Source: Camelus ferus (Eukaryota). From it: a DNA stretch of 64,000 nucleotides. Where the stretch lies: contig NC_045696.1 of the NCBI RefSeq assembly GCF_009834535.1, positions 74,588,001 to 74,652,000 of the forward strand. Reading direction: 5' to 3'. The notes under the pieces are model-generated. The model searched no databases, was not told where the DNA came from, and was given only the letters and a program-made list of their open reading frames with translations. Position numbers and translations under genes: made by a program. Of this stretch, positions 2,066 to 60,903 are shown piece after piece. The stretch's first letter is position 1. Each line of letters begins with the position of its first letter.

Positions 2066-3712
2066 TGTAGACTGCCTGCCATCCCAGGGCTACAAGGATC
2101 AAGCCATCAGGCACTAGAGCTGCCCTCTGTAGTTTCCTTGGAACACTGATCTGCTTTTCATAACAGACTAAAGTTTCTTTACCTTTTAAGTAATCTGTAA
2201 CTTTCTGTATTTGCCTTTAAAACCTTTTATTGTCACCCTGGTTGAATGAAATAAGTACTGTGTCACAGTGACCTAGGATCCCATTTGACCACATTTTTTA
2301 AAACCTTTTGATATCTTTGACAAACTTCCCCAAGTCAAATTCTAAATGAAGCTCTCCTGACCTCTAGCAAACTTTGGGATGCTTCAAAGGGCCCTGAAAC
2401 ATCCCAAAGAAAGATATTAAACTAATTAGATTGATTTGGTATGTTAAATTACATGGGAAACATTGTTAAACAGATGGTGATAAACCTTCTTGCATTATAT
2501 TGTATGGGTAAATGTCATTCGTATGGATATTCCAAAAATTATATGGAATCTCTAAAAATCTGGTATGTCCTGGTTACCAGTCATAATTGAATGTTACCAG
2601 TCATAATTCTAGTTACTATCTTAAAATGTTGTACATCTTAGAAATAACCAAGTTTTTTGTCAACTGCATTGTAATGATATCTTTAACTATGTCATTTTAA
2701 AGTCTTCTGTCATTTATAGACAGTCACTGTTTTACTTTGATGCTTTTAGAAAATGAAGACCTTCAAGATCCATAAAAAAGACTTTCTGACAAATACAAGT
2801 TTCTGATGACTTACACATATCACGGAACTACTTTTAGAACGAACCACTGAAGTGGGCAAGAAATTACAAAACCAATGGAAAACCTGATGGCTTCATCCAG
2901 ATCAACAAAAATTAATTACATAGGACTGAATGATGGCTTCATCCAGATCAACAAAAATTAATTACATAGGACTGAATGAACTGATAAATATGATTTATAA
3001 TTTTATGACTTTTTGTATGAAATATTAGTGGCTTTTAATCATTGTTTTCCAGAAACCCTTTCTTCTTATGCTAACTATGACTTACAGCAAATTGATAAGG
3101 TATAACTTTGTGCACAAAGAAACATTTATCTTTCCCTCTCTACCTGGGCCCTCCCGAATCTGGCTTCTCCAGCTGGCTCCCCCTCTGGACTTGATGACTT
3201 ACTGCAATCCAGACTGCAACCAGTTACACTAACCATTGTTTTAATTTGTTCTCTTTGTTGTTTCAGGCTGTCTATACCTTGACTCTCTCTCTGCTGTGCT
3301 ATGACCTTACTAACACCACTCGCTAGATGACTGATCTTCTGCTTTGTAAGACTGTTGTCTCTTGCTTTACCTGATGTGTAACCAGGCCTCTGACAAAATT
3401 AATGGTGTCTACACATCCTGAGGCCATCGATCACATAGAGAGCTCTATACAGAATAACCGTAACAGTGCAACTCTAGATATGGGAAGAAGTAATAAAGGA
3501 AAACACTTCCTGGATCATAATAAGCCAGCAGGAATCAGACGATCCCGAGAACTTCAGGTTGCCAACAGGGTCTAATTCAAAAACAGCACACCGAATGGCC
3601 TATCAACAAAATCCTCGTCTGACCTAGGAATGAGAATTCTTAGTGCTGCAGGACAAACTGGTCACAAAATGCCTCCCCAGTCTTGGTGGAATTTATGACC
3701 AAGAGAGGGCAC
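2066..3712 (+). mobile_element. Deleted ERV1-type (MER4-group-like) provirus: 5' LTR stub plus non-coding internal sequence ending in a polypurine tract
   Basis: 21-bp identity ctacaaggatcaagccatcag at 2090-2110 and 3746-3766; purine tract aagagaggg at 3701-3709 just before the LTR; no ORF. Confidence 0.65.
2885..2976. repeat. Perfect 2 x 46-bp tandem duplication
   Basis: tgatggcttcatccagatcaacaaaaattaattacataggactgaa at 2885-2930 and 2931-2976. Confidence 0.95.
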
Positions 3713-10871: not shown

Positions 10872-11025
10872 TTCCAGATCCATCCTTGACTCTAGGTCCT
10901 TCAGGCTTGGCCTCAGAAATAATGTTCGCATTGGCATTATTCTCCATCTCGATCACAAAGTCACTGTCCTCCTCAAACTCAGAGTGGCTAAAGATCCAAT
11001 CCAGTGCTCTTTCCAGGTTACTGTT
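10872..11025 (-). CDS. USP13: USP13 exon 19 (154 nt), end of UBA2 [51 protein letters not shown]
   Basis: Acceptor ttttatcag|AAC, donor GAA|gtaagt. Confidence 0.97.
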
Positions 11026-12484: not shown

Positions 12485-12651
12485 CGTTGCTCGTAGTGCC
12501 TGAATAGCCTGATTTCGATGGAATCCCATGGAGGTAATAATAGCTATAATTTCCTCCGGAGGCTGGTTATCCAGTCCAGTAGCACCAAAAACAGAGGCTC
12601 CAGCAGAAGCTGCTCCTCCATAACCAGGCATGGTCAGTGGTTCAGCAAAAT
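12485..12651 (-). CDS. USP13: USP13 exon 18 (167 nt), linker and start of UBA2 (D)[55 protein letters not shown]
   Basis: Acceptor ttccccag|AT, donor ACG|gtaagc. Confidence 0.97.
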
Positions 12652-13993: not shown

Positions 13994-14137
13994 CTGGCTC
14001 TTCCATGTGAACAATGATCCAGTTGAAGGCCACCTCAGCTCCCATATTTCCAGTAAAGTACACAGCCTTCCGGCACGCTTCTAGAGGGAAGCCCATCTCG
14101 GCCAGCTGCATCACTGATGACTCATCGATGTCTGATG
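13994..14137 (-). CDS. USP13: USP13 exon 17 (144 nt), UBA1 (P)SDIDESSVMQLAEMGFPLEACRKAVYFTGNMGAEVAFNWIIVHMEEP
   Basis: MGF UBA motif; acceptor ctgtag|CA, donor CAG|gtaggt. Confidence 0.97.
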
Positions 14138-16947: not shown

Positions 16948-16974
16948 GGTCTATCAATTGGTTCATCAGGCGAT
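16948..16974 (-). CDS. USP13: USP13 exon 16, 27-nt microexon, (D)RLMNQLID(P)
   Basis: Acceptor tttaatttccag|AT CGC CTG ATG AAC CAA TTG ATA GAC C|gtatgt; it supplies exactly the residues between exon 15 (DDSK) and exon 17 (PSDID). Confidence 0.93.
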
Positions 16975-18324: not shown

Positions 18325-18447
18325 CTTTGGAGTCATCAGGAATAACTATGGGGGGGCTGATGTCCGGAAGTTCCTCCTCTCCTGGCTGCAACCCCCTGGC
18401 TCGGAGATGGTTGATATCAAGTAGGTCTGGCATGTCAATTGAAACAT
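18325..18447 (-). CDS. USP13: USP13 exon 15 (123 nt), (D)[40 protein letters not shown]
   Basis: Acceptor tttcacag|AT, donor AAG|gtacca (weak). Confidence 0.95.
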
Positions 18448-20825: not shown

Positions 20826-20914
20826 CAAATTTTTTGGGAACCCAGTCAAGACCAAAAGTGAACTTCTTTATCTGCACTACCAAGTATTCAGGGAATGAGG
20901 CAAAGCGGGATGTT
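20826..20914 (-). CDS. USP13: USP13 exon 14 (89 nt), [29 protein letters not shown]
   Basis: Manual translation; acceptor tttcccag|A, donor TTG|gtaggt. Confidence 0.96.
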
Positions 20915-26554: not shown

Positions 26555-26729
26555 TTCACACCCGCAGACTTTGCTTGCAGGGCGCTGCTCCAGAAATCAT
26601 CAACGTTTTCTGGTTCAGAAAAGGCCTGAAGGCAGGCGCTGAATGGTATCTTGGCACGAACCAGCTCGGGAAGGGGTCTTCTGTTTGCTTCTGCCTCCCT
26701 TCTCGTTAGCTCGTAGGCGATTAGTTCAT
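26555..26729 (-). CDS. USP13: USP13 exon 13 (175 nt), (D)[57 protein letters not shown](K)
   Basis: Acceptor ttactcag|AT, donor GAA|gtaagt. Confidence 0.96.
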
Positions 26730-28718: not shown

Positions 28719-28872
28719 CCTTGTTGGTTGCTGCCTCCATGGCCACAGGTAACTGCATCAGGTAATCCACCCTCTCCGTGTAACGGACTTTCCGGGTCTG
28801 ACAGCACTGAATACGTTCTTCCACCAAAAACCGAAAAACATCACTCGGGTTTTCTGAGCCAATGCGGTTCCT
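28719..28872 (-). CDS. USP13: USP13 exon 12 (154 nt), [51 protein letters not shown]
   Basis: Acceptor cttcag|AGG, donor AGG|gtaacg. Confidence 0.96.
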
Positions 28873-29970: not shown

Positions 29971-30096
29971 CTCGACTAGATTCACCAAGTGCAAGAAAAA
30001 TTCCTGGGCATCCTGCTGTCTGTTGGAGGAGAGCTCCGGGTGGCTCTTGCTCACAAAGGCCTTAAACATGCGCGGGGAGATCCCGTTCTGTTGAGG
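29971..30096 (-). CDS. USP13: USP13 exon 11 (126 nt), [42 protein letters not shown] (QQDA box)
   Basis: Acceptor tttttag|CCT, donor GAG|gtgggt. Confidence 0.96.
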
Positions 30097-38348: not shown

Positions 38349-38442
38349 CTTATGCTCCTCCTTCATCACCTGTTCAATGAGTTCAGATTTCACGGGAGGT
38401 TTTGAATACTGGCCTGAGAGAAGGCCATGTCCTAACTTAGTC
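38349..38442 (-). CDS. USP13: USP13 exon 10 (94 nt), [31 protein letters not shown]
   Basis: Acceptor ctgcccag|G, donor AAG|gtatgt; within ORF 38190..38537. Confidence 0.96.
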
Positions 38443-38818: not shown

Positions 38819-38890
38819 ATCTGTGTATTAAAATCTTGTGTTGGATCTAAAGGAGAGTAGTCAAATATTCTTGGAAGATTTCCTACATAC
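38819..38890 (-). CDS. USP13: USP13 exon 9 (72 nt), [23 protein letters not shown](M)
   Basis: Manual translation; acceptor ttttctag|G, donor GAT|gtaagt. Confidence 0.96.
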
Positions 38891-42520: not shown

Positions 42521-43215
42521 ATGTTTATTTAATGTCTGTTTCCCCAGGGAGGGCCAGGCACCTATCCTTTTGTGTACCACTGAACCCCCCACACCCAGCA
42601 CAATGCTGATCAGAATAGAACCCACTGTTTTTGCCCAGATGGAAAAATGAAAATCTGACATGGAAAACTGACCATAGATTTCCAAAGCCAGGAAAAGTAA
42701 AAAAAAAAAAAAAAAAGAGGTAAGACTTCAAATACCAAGAGAGGAAAGAAAAGGATATTTGATACACATGACATATATGACATATAATCACCCTTAAAGC
42801 CATCAGTGGTCAACTCCACGTGGGTGAAAAATGGCCTTTTGTTGTTCCTAGCCTGCTGTCTGCCTGTCAGTGTGTCCGAGCACGCATGTGTCCTCTTCCA
42901 TACTTGAACCAAGGTGGAAACCTACCTGCTCTGGAAAACATTAGAGATTATTTCCTAAATTTAGGCAGCAGCTGCCCATGAGCTGCAGCTGCCAGTCTCT
43001 GCGGCTCCCTGTCCCAAGCACAGCCTACATTAGAAAACGGCCAGAGGCAGCCACTCCACCCAGGGGAAGGGAGGAGGAAGAAGGCAACTAAATGCGCATA
43101 GTTAGCAAGCACCCTAAATCAGTGCCTCCCAATAACTTGTGGTGAAGGGCCAACTCGTTTGTTGATTTCAACTCATATAAATGATACCTTCTAAAATACA
43201 ATAAAAAATGAATTA

Positions 43216-43437
43216 CAGCTGAGCCTTGAACAACACGGGATTTAGGGGCACTAACCTTCCGCACAGTCGAAGTTCCACGCCTAACTTTACAGTCAGCCCT
43301 TTGGCTTCAGGGTTTCTCCATACGTGAGGTTTCAACCTACCGCAGATCATGTAGTACTGTAGCACATATTTATTGAAAAAAATCCAAATATAAGTGAACC
43401 AGTGTAGTTTAAACCTGTGTTGTTCAAGGCTCAACTG
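43216..43437 (+). mobile_element. MER8/Tigger2-type MITE with TIRs and TA TSD, apparently nested in an older hAT element (about 43120-43600)
   Basis: ta|cagctgagccttgaacaacacggg ... cctgtgttgttcaaggctcaactg|ta. Confidence 0.85.
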
Positions 43438-43879
43438 TACTGGAAAAACGAAATGCCATTTATAAAACAGAGCAATGTCAAACTGCTACAACAATTTCTG
43501 AATGCTCACTCCCAATCTCCATACTGGTCTCACTACATACAGATCCATATCCAATAGTCAAAGGCCCAGCGCCATCTGGGAATCACATTTTGAGAAGGAA
43601 AAAAAATTGAAAAGCCTAAATCCTTTAAGAAACTCCACTCACCAGGAAGGCGACACTGACCCAACAGATCACTGACTCTCTCCTAGTGCATCTATAGAAG
43701 AGATTTGGCAGGTTTGCTGTGAAGATTAATGATTATTATATTCTTGGCATACAGGGTGATGGTCTAAAAATGGAAGCCATTATTAATACGACAAATGCCC
43801 TGTTGATGTTTTTCCGTTTACAGAATTCTCCCTAGCTCAGCGGATCCCCATAACCCTCGGCAAGGGTTCTCACCCAGCG

Positions 43880-44205
43880 CAGGGCGAGAAGTCACAGCGC
43901 AGGCGGTGCGGCGAGGTGTCCTGCCACCAAAGAAGAAGGGCTTTCCCGTGCACTCGCCCGGCTGCACGCGGCGGGGCGGGGCGCCAGGCAGGCTTTGCGC
44001 CCGTTCTGCGGGAGACACTTACGCTCTCTGGAACTCCGGGATGCTGAAGATGGCCTGCATCACAGGAGCTCAGATAGCAGCTATTCCCCAGGTTCTTGAG
44101 CCCCGTGTAGCCGGGGCCGTACATGGGCTTCAGCTTTGACCCTGTCTCCTGGATCACTTCCCACTCGCTGACCCGCGGCTTGATGTCGTTGTCCCGGAGC
44201 CCGTT
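43880..44205. promoter_or_regulatory. Small intragenic CpG-rich patch over exon 8 and the start of intron 8
   Basis: Dense CpG (gcgcaggcggtgcggcg, cacgcggcggggcggggcgcc) against a CpG-poor background. Confidence 0.5.
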
Positions 44206-44211
44206 CTCTGT
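44023..44211 (-). CDS. USP13: USP13 exon 8 (189 nt as assembled, 188 needed for frame), catalytic Cys box [49 protein letters not shown][+1 nt][14 protein letters not shown]
   Basis: Acceptor ccccag|ACA, donor AGC|gtaagt. The frame switches at 44065-44066 (AGC TCC TGT GAT instead of AGC TCT GTG ATG). Confidence 0.95.
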
Positions 44212-44704
44212 CTGGGGCAACATCATTGAGGAAAAACAGCTTTAACGATGATGATCGCTCTAAGATCATGTCTCAAAAATTATTTCTAACAGCAATTGAT
44301 GTTTCTGCCCTTTTCCCCCCAATTAAACAGAGAAATAAGTAACTTCATGAAAAGAGACTAAGACGGTGAAGGCTGTACAAGGCAGATGTACTTAATGCCA
44401 CAGAACTGTACATTTTAAAATGGTTAAAATCGTGAATTTTATATCTTCTGATAATTTTTTAAAACCAAATTAGAAGATTTAAAAATAGAAGAGACAAAGG
44501 CTGAGAGGAAAGGAGATAGGAGAAAGAAAGAAAAATAGGAATCAAAAAAGAAGCAAGTAGAATAATTTCAAGAGCAGACACAATGCAACACAGCAAACAA
44601 AAAAGCAAGGCAGTTGCAGAGGAAAGTGGAATAAAACAATGGGGCTTGGGAGTAGCTCAGCATAGGAGGAAGGTTAAAGAAGAACAGTAAAAAATTTGGT
44701 GAGG

Positions 44705-44860
44705 AGGGGAGGGTAATAGCTCAGTGGTAGAGCGCCTGCTTAACATGCATGAGGTCCCAGTTCAATCCCCAGTACTTCCATTAAAAATAAATAAGTAAAC
44801 CTAATTACCACCCCCCGAAAGAAAATAAAAATAAAGAGCTGTGAAAATAAATTTAAAAGT
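44705..44860 (+). mobile_element. Camelid tRNA-derived SINE (Vic-1-like)
   Basis: ggggagggtaatagctcagtggtagagcgcctgcttaacatgcatgaggtcccagttcaatccccagtacttcca followed by aataaacctaattacc tail; tRNA-Ala-like head. Confidence 0.85.
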
Positions 44861-45451: not shown

Positions 45452-45546
45452 CCCATGCATATGAAGCATATCAATTCCAAAATGTGCTAAGTGCTTGGCC
45501 AAATGAGGATCCAAAACAGGTTCCTCTTCTTGGAAAGAATAAACAT
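45452..45546 (-). CDS. USP13: USP13 exon 7 (95 nt), (D)[31 protein letters not shown]
   Basis: Manual translation; acceptor ctctctag|AT, donor GGG|gtaagc. Confidence 0.96.
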
Positions 45547-53850: not shown

Positions 53851-54035
53851 CTGCCCCGTCAGGAGTGATGGTTCCCAGCTTCACAGCTAGAGGGTAGCCC
53901 AGGTCTCTGTAATGTTCCAGCGCGTGCCCGTTGCCCCCGGAGCTGTCAAAGAACCACTTTCCACACAGCACAGAGCCGTCAGTCAAATTCAACCAGAGGT
54001 TTTCCCGCAGGTCACACCTGGCACACTTCCAACCA
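53851..54035 (-). CDS. USP13: USP13 exon 6 (185 nt), ZnF-UBP domain [61 protein letters not shown]
   Basis: CxxC...C...H zinc ligands; acceptor tttccag|T, donor CAG|gtaagt. Confidence 0.97.
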
Positions 54036-55546: not shown

Positions 55547-55689
55547 CTTGGAGGAATCCTGACTCCGTTGTCCAACTGCGTGAGGTTATTGGCATATTTG
55601 GATACTGGCAATTCATTTTCCCATGTGTCTGGGTCCTGCTTTCTATACGGAGACTTTGAGCTGAGAACTGCATCACAAGCAATTGTTAC
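55547..55689 (-). CDS. USP13: USP13 exon 5 (143 nt), [47 protein letters not shown](S)
   Basis: Manual translation; acceptor cttacag|GTA, donor AAG|gtgagg; absent from the ORF track. Confidence 0.96.
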
Positions 55690-60781: not shown

Positions 60782-60903
60782 CAGGGCTGGTAACTCCTCA
60801 ATATTTGGCAGTGCTATTTCATAGTGGTCTGGAAATATAACAAGCTTGGCTTCATCTTCATATTCATAATCGTCGCTATTTAAATCATCATCAGTATCTA
60901 GAT
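60782..60903 (-). CDS. USP13: USP13 exon 4 (122 nt), (D)[40 protein letters not shown]
   Basis: Acceptor ttttctcctcag|AT, donor CTG|gtcagt; peptide visible in ORF 60743..60967. Confidence 0.96.

What the first reader, a model, noticed from the sequence alone, without database searches (positions are those of the whole stretch)
44061..44070. 1-bp frameshift four codons after the catalytic cysteine of USP13
Seen: exon 8 reads GGG AAT AGC TGC TAT CTG AGC TCC TGT GAT GCA on the minus strand. Removing one C (plus-strand gg at 44065-44066) restores AGC TCT GTG ATG CAG GCC = S-S-V-M-Q-A. The exon is 189 nt, while the phases of exons 7 and 9 require 188. As assembled, splicing to exon 9 gives [27 protein letters not shown] (TGA at 38861-38863), upstream of many junctions, so an NMD target lacking the His box and UBAs. 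Inference: the other 15 exons and all splice sites are intact, so this is an assembly/sequencing indel or a very recent loss-of-function allele, not an old pseudogene.
Basis: partly seen in the sequence, partly recalled or inferred. Interest (0 to 1): 0.8.

Follow-up and report, generated by a model that had tools for sequence, protein, structure and literature searches.

The report
Assembly insertion error in camel USP13
The one-base frameshift just after the catalytic cysteine of the camel USP13 gene is really in the assembled sequence, but it is almost certainly a sequencing or assembly error and not a broken gene.

Summary
Exon 8 of USP13 (window 44211-44023, minus strand) is 189 nt where 188 are needed. 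The coding-strand CC at 44066-44065 shifts the frame four codons after the catalytic Cys, and translation stops at TGA 38863-38861.

Everything else in the gene is intact. It has 21 coding exons and 20 GT..AG introns. With one C dropped it reads as an 863-aa frame, 97.9% identical to a mammalian USP13. It has only 3 lineage-unique substitutions, so it is not an old pseudogene.

The same assembly carries the same kind of lesion in genes that cannot plausibly be null. BRCA2 exon 11 has three frame breaks and the last exon of desmoplakin has one. Epiplakin-like repeats have three, and 4 of 57 protocadherin exons have one each. Eleven of these 12 breaks are one extra base, like the USP13 one. Unique long exons show about one break per 15 kb.

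Verdict: assembly or consensus insertion error, about 0.9; real recent null allele, about 0.07. Low interest, except as a warning about this assembly.

The parts
44023..44211 (-). USP13 coding exon 8, 189 nt as assembled (188 needed); holds the Cys box
   Evidence: AG acceptor, GTAAGT donor; frame 0 up to SS, next frame afterwards
44077..44079 (-). TGC codon of the catalytic cysteine (GNSCY)
   Evidence: aligned to the USP5 Cys box in PDB 3ihp
44065..44066 (-). CC on the coding strand (GG on the plus strand); one of the two bases is the extra one
   Evidence: dropping one base gives a 2592-nt, 863-aa open frame
38819..38890 (-). coding exon 9 (72 nt), read out of frame as assembled
38861..38863 (-). 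premature TGA, codon 373 of the as-assembled reading
45452..45546 (-). coding exon 7 (95 nt), ends in phase 0
60782..60903 (-). coding exon 4 (122 nt)
55547..55689 (-). coding exon 5 (143 nt)
53851..54035 (-). coding exon 6 (185 nt), ZnF-UBP
   Evidence: PF02148 E 4.6e-14
38349..38442 (-). coding exon 10 (94 nt)
29971..30096 (-). coding exon 11 (126 nt)
28719..28872 (-). coding exon 12 (154 nt)
26555..26729 (-). coding exon 13 (175 nt)
20826..20914 (-). coding exon 14 (89 nt)
18325..18447 (-). coding exon 15 (123 nt; donor GTACCA)
16948..16974 (-). coding exon 16 (27 nt)
13994..14137 (-). coding exon 17 (144 nt), first UBA domain
   Evidence: PF22562 E 1.3e-16, PF00627 E 1.9e-11
12485..12651 (-). 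coding exon 18 (167 nt), start of second UBA domain
   Evidence: PF00627 E 2.9e-7
10872..11025 (-). coding exon 19 (154 nt), end of second UBA domain

Best explanation
The extra C is an error of the assembled consensus, a one-base insertion made during sequencing, gap filling or polishing. It is not a property of the animal's gene. The real locus most likely reads one C at this place and encodes a normal 863-aa USP13, with ZnF-UBP, Cys box, two UBA domains and His box.

Shown here: the lesion itself, the intactness of the rest of the gene, and the presence of many lesions of the same type in other genes of the same assembly, including indispensable ones. Inferred: that the USP13 lesion belongs to that class. 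No reads were seen.
For: (1) It is a single lesion. There are 21 exons and 20 GT..AG introns. With one C dropped in a script the CDS is 2592 nt with one terminal stop and is 845/863 identical to P0002. Only 3 residues are lineage-unique, against 1-21 (median 4) in 11 other mammals.

(2) The same assembly has the same kind of break elsewhere.
- Last exon of desmoplakin: a frame-2 ORF of 794 aa (100% identical to PDB 5dzz over 94 aa) runs into a frame-3 ORF of 308 aa (PDB 1lm5, E 2e-133).
- BRCA2 exon 11: frames go 2>3>2>3, with BRC repeats in all pieces.
- Epiplakin-like tandem units measure 1570, 1570, 1570, 1569 and 1569 nt, with three single extra bases.
- 4 of 57 protocadherin exons each have one +1 break and no other stop.

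(3) Of these 12 breaks, 11 are +1, like the USP13 one.

(4) Rate. Unique long exons show 4 breaks in about 59 kb. That predicts about 0.15 breaks per 2.6-kb USP13 CDS and, by inference, more than a thousand across all coding sequence.

(5) Weak support: 15 of 24 listed runs hold 0.98 of the 126 sampled words of window 43470-44670, and none holds 1.00. One assembly-only base would remove about 3 of 126 sampled words.
Against: The 0.98 word share could equally come from the filtered places in the same stretch. It therefore does not discriminate.

Most long exons sampled are intact: the SACS-like 3854 aa, XIRP2-like 3128 aa, plectin-like 2073 aa, RAG1 1056 aa and others. Errors are therefore patchy, and nothing shows that exon 8 lies in a bad patch.

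The protocadherin and epiplakin breaks lie in paralogous or repeated DNA, where errors are easier to make than in unique DNA like USP13. Some protocadherin breaks could be natural pseudogenes.

Usp13 knockout mice are viable (recalled, not checked here), so a real null allele is not biologically excluded.
Confidence: 0.9

Rival explanations
1. A real, very recent germline loss-of-function allele of USP13 carried by the sequenced animal, heterozygous or homozygous. Its mRNA would stop at codon 373 in exon 9 of 21 and would be expected to undergo nonsense-mediated decay. Any protein made would keep the ZnF-UBP and the Cys box but lack the His box and both UBA domains.
For: The base is in the assembly and the exon is single copy. 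The rest of the gene is intact, which fits a very young allele as well as it fits an error. USP13 loss is tolerated in mice (recalled, not checked here).
Against: The same assembly shows frame breaks in BRCA2 (3) and desmoplakin (1), which cannot all be real null alleles in a healthy reference animal. Eleven of the 12 breaks are of the same +1 type. The prior for a real frameshift in the catalytic core of a gene about 98% identical across mammalian orders is far below the roughly 0.15 expected errors per CDS. No run holds all sampled words (weak).
Confidence: 0.07
2. The extra base is real and is bypassed during expression by +1 ribosomal frameshifting on UCC-U, or by transcript slippage or editing. 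Decoding UCC, skipping U and reading GUG would give the normal S-S-V-M-Q sequence.
For: The mRNA would read AGC UCC U GUG. UCC followed by U is the shift codon of the antizyme +1 site (recalled from memory, not checked here).
Against: The codon after UCC is the sense codon UGU, not a stop, so nothing would pause the ribosome. Every other mammalian sequence seen reads straight through in frame: 120 listed proteins and 15 ORFs. A recoding signal would therefore have to be brand new. No stimulatory element was looked for or seen. The assembly-wide error pattern explains the base without any new mechanism.
Confidence: 0.005
3. USP13 is an old unitary pseudogene, or is being lost, in camelids.
For: Only the frameshift itself.
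Against: There is no second lesion in 2.6 kb of CDS and all 40 splice dinucleotides are canonical. The protein shows 3 lineage-unique changes, within the range of other mammals. The ZnF-UBP and UBA domains score above the Pfam cut-offs.
Confidence: 0.005

Closest known systems
Gene-fragmenting indel errors of long-read or gap-filled genome assemblies
   Same: A single-base indel in an otherwise perfect, conserved gene, with many similar breaks in other genes of the same assembly. The abstract of PMC12007338 (seen in the search listing) states that higher error rates of long-read assemblies introduce frameshifts and premature stops that pseudogenize genes.
   Different: How this assembly was made is not known to me. 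The strong excess of one-base insertions (11 of 12) is my own count on a small sample. Several breaks are not in homopolymer runs.
Mammalian USP13 (isopeptidase T-3), paralogue of USP5
   Same: 21 coding exons. With the extra base skipped the sequence is 97.4-98.5% identical to 10 of the 11 other mammals compared (95.2% to Arvicanthis). ZnF-UBP, Cys box, two UBA domains and His box are all present. The USP5 paralogue lies elsewhere, at C34:16.48 Mb.
   Different: As assembled the frame breaks at residue 350 and stops at codon 373.
Antizyme-type programmed +1 ribosomal frameshift (recalled, not checked here)
   Same: The same shift codon context, UCC followed by U; skipping the U would restore the frame.
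   Different: The antizyme site has a stop codon after UCC and is conserved. Here the next codon is a sense codon, and the in-frame version is what all other mammals have.

Membership tests
USP13 orthologue (peptidase C19, USP5/USP13 subfamily) | Cys box with the catalytic cysteine | tested here: met
   [13 protein letters not shown] in exon 8; aligned to the USP5 Cys box, PDB 3ihp, E 6.9e-15
USP13 orthologue (peptidase C19, USP5/USP13 subfamily) | Uninterrupted reading frame through the catalytic core | tested here: not met
   As assembled: 2593-nt CDS, stop at codon 373. Met only if one base is ignored.
USP13 orthologue (peptidase C19, USP5/USP13 subfamily) | His box in the last exons | tested here: met
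   Exons 20 and 21 lie outside the window (L031) and align to P0002 residues 805-863 without a lesion inside the exons
USP13 orthologue (peptidase C19, USP5/USP13 subfamily) | ZnF-UBP and two UBA domains | tested here: met
   PF02148 E 4.6e-14; PF22562 E 1.3e-16 and PF00627 E 1.9e-11 (first UBA); PF00627 E 2.9e-7 (second UBA)
USP13 orthologue (peptidase C19, USP5/USP13 subfamily) | Single-copy, intron-bearing locus distinct from USP5 | tested here: met
   1 DNA match for the exon. USP13 exons lie on C1:74.58-74.69 Mb and the USP5-like exons on C34.
Assembly consensus indel error | The base is absent from the raw reads | not testable with these tools
Word shares of 0.98 in 15 runs and 1.00 in none are ambiguous.
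Assembly consensus indel error | Lesions of the same type in other genes of the same assembly, including indispensable ones | tested here: met
   BRCA2 exon 11 has 3 breaks, desmoplakin 1, epiplakin-like repeats 3, protocadherin exons 4 of 57; 11 of the 12 are +1
Assembly consensus indel error | Isolated single-base lesion in an otherwise constrained gene | tested here: met
Unitary pseudogene / lineage gene loss | Several lesions and relaxed constraint | tested here: not met
   One lesion only and canonical splice sites; 3 lineage-unique residues against a median of 4 in the other mammals
Programmed +1 ribosomal frameshift | Slow-to-decode or stop codon after the shift codon, and conservation of the out-of-frame arrangement | tested here: not met
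   The next codon is UGU. All other mammalian sequences seen are in frame.

The most novel reading that the evidence does not exclude
The CC is real. The sequenced camel would then carry a natural null allele of USP13 that truncates the enzyme four codons after its catalytic cysteine. That would make it a spontaneous large-animal knockout of a deubiquitinase tied to autophagy and ER-associated degradation. Some protein might even be rescued by a +1 shift on UCC-U.
Probability: 0.06. Interest if true: 0.45.

Novelty: not a real feature. Interest (0 to 1): 0.1.

Why it matters
For USP13 biology it matters little. The gene is best read as intact, and an annotation that calls it a pseudogene or a truncated protein in this assembly would be wrong.

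The practical point concerns the assembly. It carries single-base frame breaks, mostly one extra base, at roughly one per 15-20 kb of the long exons sampled, including BRCA2 and desmoplakin. Any frameshift, pseudogene or gene-loss finding from this genome therefore needs read support before it is believed. Gene models built on it will under-call proteins.

Tried and rejected
(1) Laying reads. I did not send it again, so there is no read evidence either way.

(2) Word shares of runs. Fifteen runs hold 0.98 and none holds 1.00. This fits one assembly-only base, but it fits the filtered places equally well. I treat it as ambiguous.

(3) Metagenome contigs. An exact pattern that allowed either one or two Cs gave 0 matches. 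A protein-guided scan gave 25 loci, the best at 63% identity and none mammalian.

(4) ORFs from public read assemblies in the protein collection. Nine clusters came back, and I saw 15 of the 35 members of the main one. All read straight through (…[16 protein letters not shown]) except P0128. None has this animal's intron-encoded start or its Ser at residue 325. Twenty members were not listed.

(5) Exact look-up of the frameshifted 118-aa ORF. It is not in the collection. Only 2 of 9 control ORFs from the same window are in it, so the absence says nothing.

(6) Camelid USP13 entries, which might carry a 'low quality protein' label. None was among the 120 proteins listed or the 15 of 513 cluster members listed.

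(7) Earlier notes of this scan. There is nothing on this locus and no note with the word frameshift.

(8) Literature. 'USP13' plus 'camel' gave 14 papers; none of the 10 listed is relevant by title or abstract start. A search on camel genome-assembly indels gave nothing relevant among the 8 listed.

(9) Old pseudogene: rejected.

(10) A second, intact copy or haplotig of the exon: none found (1 match).

Full report
**What is there.** On the minus strand, window 44211-44023 is an exon of 189 nt. It is bounded by an AG acceptor and a GTAAGT donor. In frame 0 it encodes ...[19 protein letters not shown] and then [14 protein letters not shown]. The expected continuation [13 protein letters not shown] stands in the next frame and begins right after the coding-strand CC at 44066-44065.

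The exon aligns to the Cys box of human USP5 (PDB 3ihp, E 6.9e-15), but only up to that point. The best proteins in a 5.8-billion-protein collection are all USP13; 120 were listed, with 84-98% identity over the first 49-50 residues (78% over the longer alignments of P0025 and P0027). The Cys codon is 44079-44077, so the shift lies in the fourth codon after it.

**The whole gene.** The window is G000:C1:74588001-74652000 of a 2.09-Gb assembly. Earlier notes of this scan call it a camel genome (not checked by me).

USP13 spans C1:74583292-74694458 on the minus strand and has 21 coding exons. Exons 4-19 lie in the window. All 20 introns are GT..AG. As assembled the CDS is 2593 nt, and the first stop is codon 373, TGA at window 38863-38861 in exon 9, after ...[14 protein letters not shown].

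With one C left out, in a script only, the CDS is 2592 nt with one terminal stop. It gives 863 aa, 845 of them identical to the mammalian representative P0002. The ZnF-UBP (exon 6) and both UBA domains (exons 17-19) pass Pfam cut-offs. The His-box exons 20-21 are intact.

Against 11 other mammals the read-through has 3 lineage-unique residues: T325S, F440L and P768S. The others have 1-21, with a median of 4. So there is no sign of relaxed constraint, and the gene is not an old pseudogene. The exon is single copy and no intact second copy or haplotig exists. The paralogue USP5 lies on C34.

**The direct test failed.** I chose the repeat-free stretch 43470-44670 after mapping interspersed repeats at 43203-43455 and 44676-44852. 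Fifteen of 24 listed public runs of 'organism A' or related samples hold 0.98 of its 126 sampled words, and none holds 1.00.

One assembly-only base would remove about 30 of 1171 words, or about 3 of the 126 sampled, which gives 0.98. Those filtered places could explain the missing words equally well. I therefore have no read-level evidence.

Other routes to independent sequence also gave nothing:
- metagenome contigs;
- ORFs from public read assemblies;
- an exact look-up whose controls were found in only 2 of 9 cases;
- cluster listings.

**Indirect test: is this assembly prone to such breaks?** I used Pfam families to locate long single exons in the same genome and read the open frames around them.

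Protocadherin exons: 57 were found. Of these, 53 are open for 788 aa or more and 4 are short. Each of the 4 has exactly one frame change of +1 and no other stop.

Unique long exons of genes that cannot plausibly be null:
- The desmoplakin last exon runs from a frame-2 ORF of 794 aa into a frame-3 ORF of 308 aa, overlapping by 71 nt. The first ORF is 100% identical to PDB 5dzz over 94 aa. The second matches PDB 1lm5 at E 2e-133.
- BRCA2 exon 11 is cut into four ORFs in frames 2, 3, 2 and 3 (399, 657, 201 and 474 aa). BRC repeats score in the 657-, 201- and 474-aa pieces. That makes three breaks: +1, -1 and +1.
- Still open are the SACS-like (3854 aa), XIRP2-like (3128), XIRP1-like (1856), RAG1 (1056) and plectin-like (2073) exons, plus four other plakin exons of 1807, 1819, 860 and 638 aa.

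That is 4 breaks in about 59 kb of unique long exons. The gene names other than desmoplakin, BRCA2 and RAG1 are inferred from the family and the exon size.

Epiplakin-like tandem repeats have units of 1570, 1570, 1570, 1569 and 1569 nt. The units differ at four columns, and three of those differences are single extra bases.

In all, 11 of 12 breaks are one extra base (or, formally, two missing). Some are in short runs and some are not in runs at all. The USP13 lesion, a doubled C, is of the same kind.

**Weighing.** At 5-7 breaks per 100 kb, a 2.6-kb CDS is expected to carry about 0.15 of them. By inference the whole coding genome would carry more than a thousand. A healthy reference animal cannot be null for BRCA2 three times over and for desmoplakin, so at least those breaks are errors.

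A real frameshift in the catalytic core of a gene about 98% identical across mammalian orders has a much lower prior. I put the assembly error at about 0.9, a real recent null allele at about 0.07, and recoding or old pseudogene at under 0.01 each.

Caveats:
- the sample is small;
- errors are patchy, and most long exons are clean;
- the protocadherin and epiplakin cases lie in paralogous DNA;
- no read was seen.

**Comparison with what is known.** The gene is an ordinary USP13 orthologue. The lesion matches the well-known class of gene-fragmenting indels in error-prone assemblies (abstract of PMC12007338, seen in the listing).

One curiosity: the mRNA would read UCC-U-GUG, and UCC-U is the antizyme +1 shift context (recalled, not checked). 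The following codon is a sense codon, however, and all other mammals are in frame. I give that reading almost no weight.

Searches for 'USP13' with 'camel' (14 papers, 10 listed, none relevant by title or abstract start) and for camel assembly indels found nothing in print on this locus.

**Verdict.** The assembly-error branch is strongly favoured. It is not a biological feature and its interest is low. The useful by-product is the warning that frame breaks in this assembly should not be taken as gene loss without reads.

Noticed in passing
L041 4428-4498 (G000:C20:5045428-5045498): The desmoplakin last exon changes from frame 2 to frame 3 between plakin-repeat domains B and C. Both halves are about 98-100% identical to human PDB chains. 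This is almost certainly an assembly insertion.
   Followed up: yes
L045, reverse complement, 1686-1768, 3608-3656 and about 4209 (G000:C14:17331501-17338500): BRCA2 exon 11 is cut by three single-base frame changes (+1 in an A run, -1 in a T run, +1 doubled T) in about 4.9 kb.
   Followed up: yes
L042/L043, G000:C25:866215-874063: Epiplakin-like near-identical tandem units of 1570, 1570, 1570, 1569 and 1569 nt. Three single extra bases break the giant ORF into pieces of 2065, 881, 881, 1079 and 1221 aa. A further break near C25:865350-865933 was not resolved.
   Followed up: partly
L034 1379-1422; L035 2263-2492; L036 1682-1758; L037 1656-1705 (G000:C3:98.33-98.72 Mb): Four of 57 protocadherin cluster exons each carry one +1 frame change and no other stop. 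They could be assembly errors or very young pseudogenes.
   Followed up: partly
G000:C3:19395346-19395525: An intronless 92-aa open frame, 76% identical to USP13 residues 804-862, spans what are exons 20 and 21 in the gene. It looks like a fragment of a retrocopy.
   Followed up: no
protein P0128: An ORF from a public read assembly of another, more distant organism also changes frame a few codons after the USP13-type Cys box (…NLGNSCYMGTVLQ, then an out-of-frame tail). This may be another sequencing error at the same exon.
   Followed up: no
window 43203-43455 and 44676-44852: Interspersed repeats in introns 8 and 7. Many copies across the genome are 74-91% identical. The exon and about 1.2 kb around it are unique.
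   Followed up: partly
window exon 8 (residue 325), exon 11 (residue 440), exon 19 (residue 768): Three residues are unique to this sequence among 12 mammals (T325S, F440L, P768S). They may be real camelid changes or substitution errors of the assembly.
   Followed up: no
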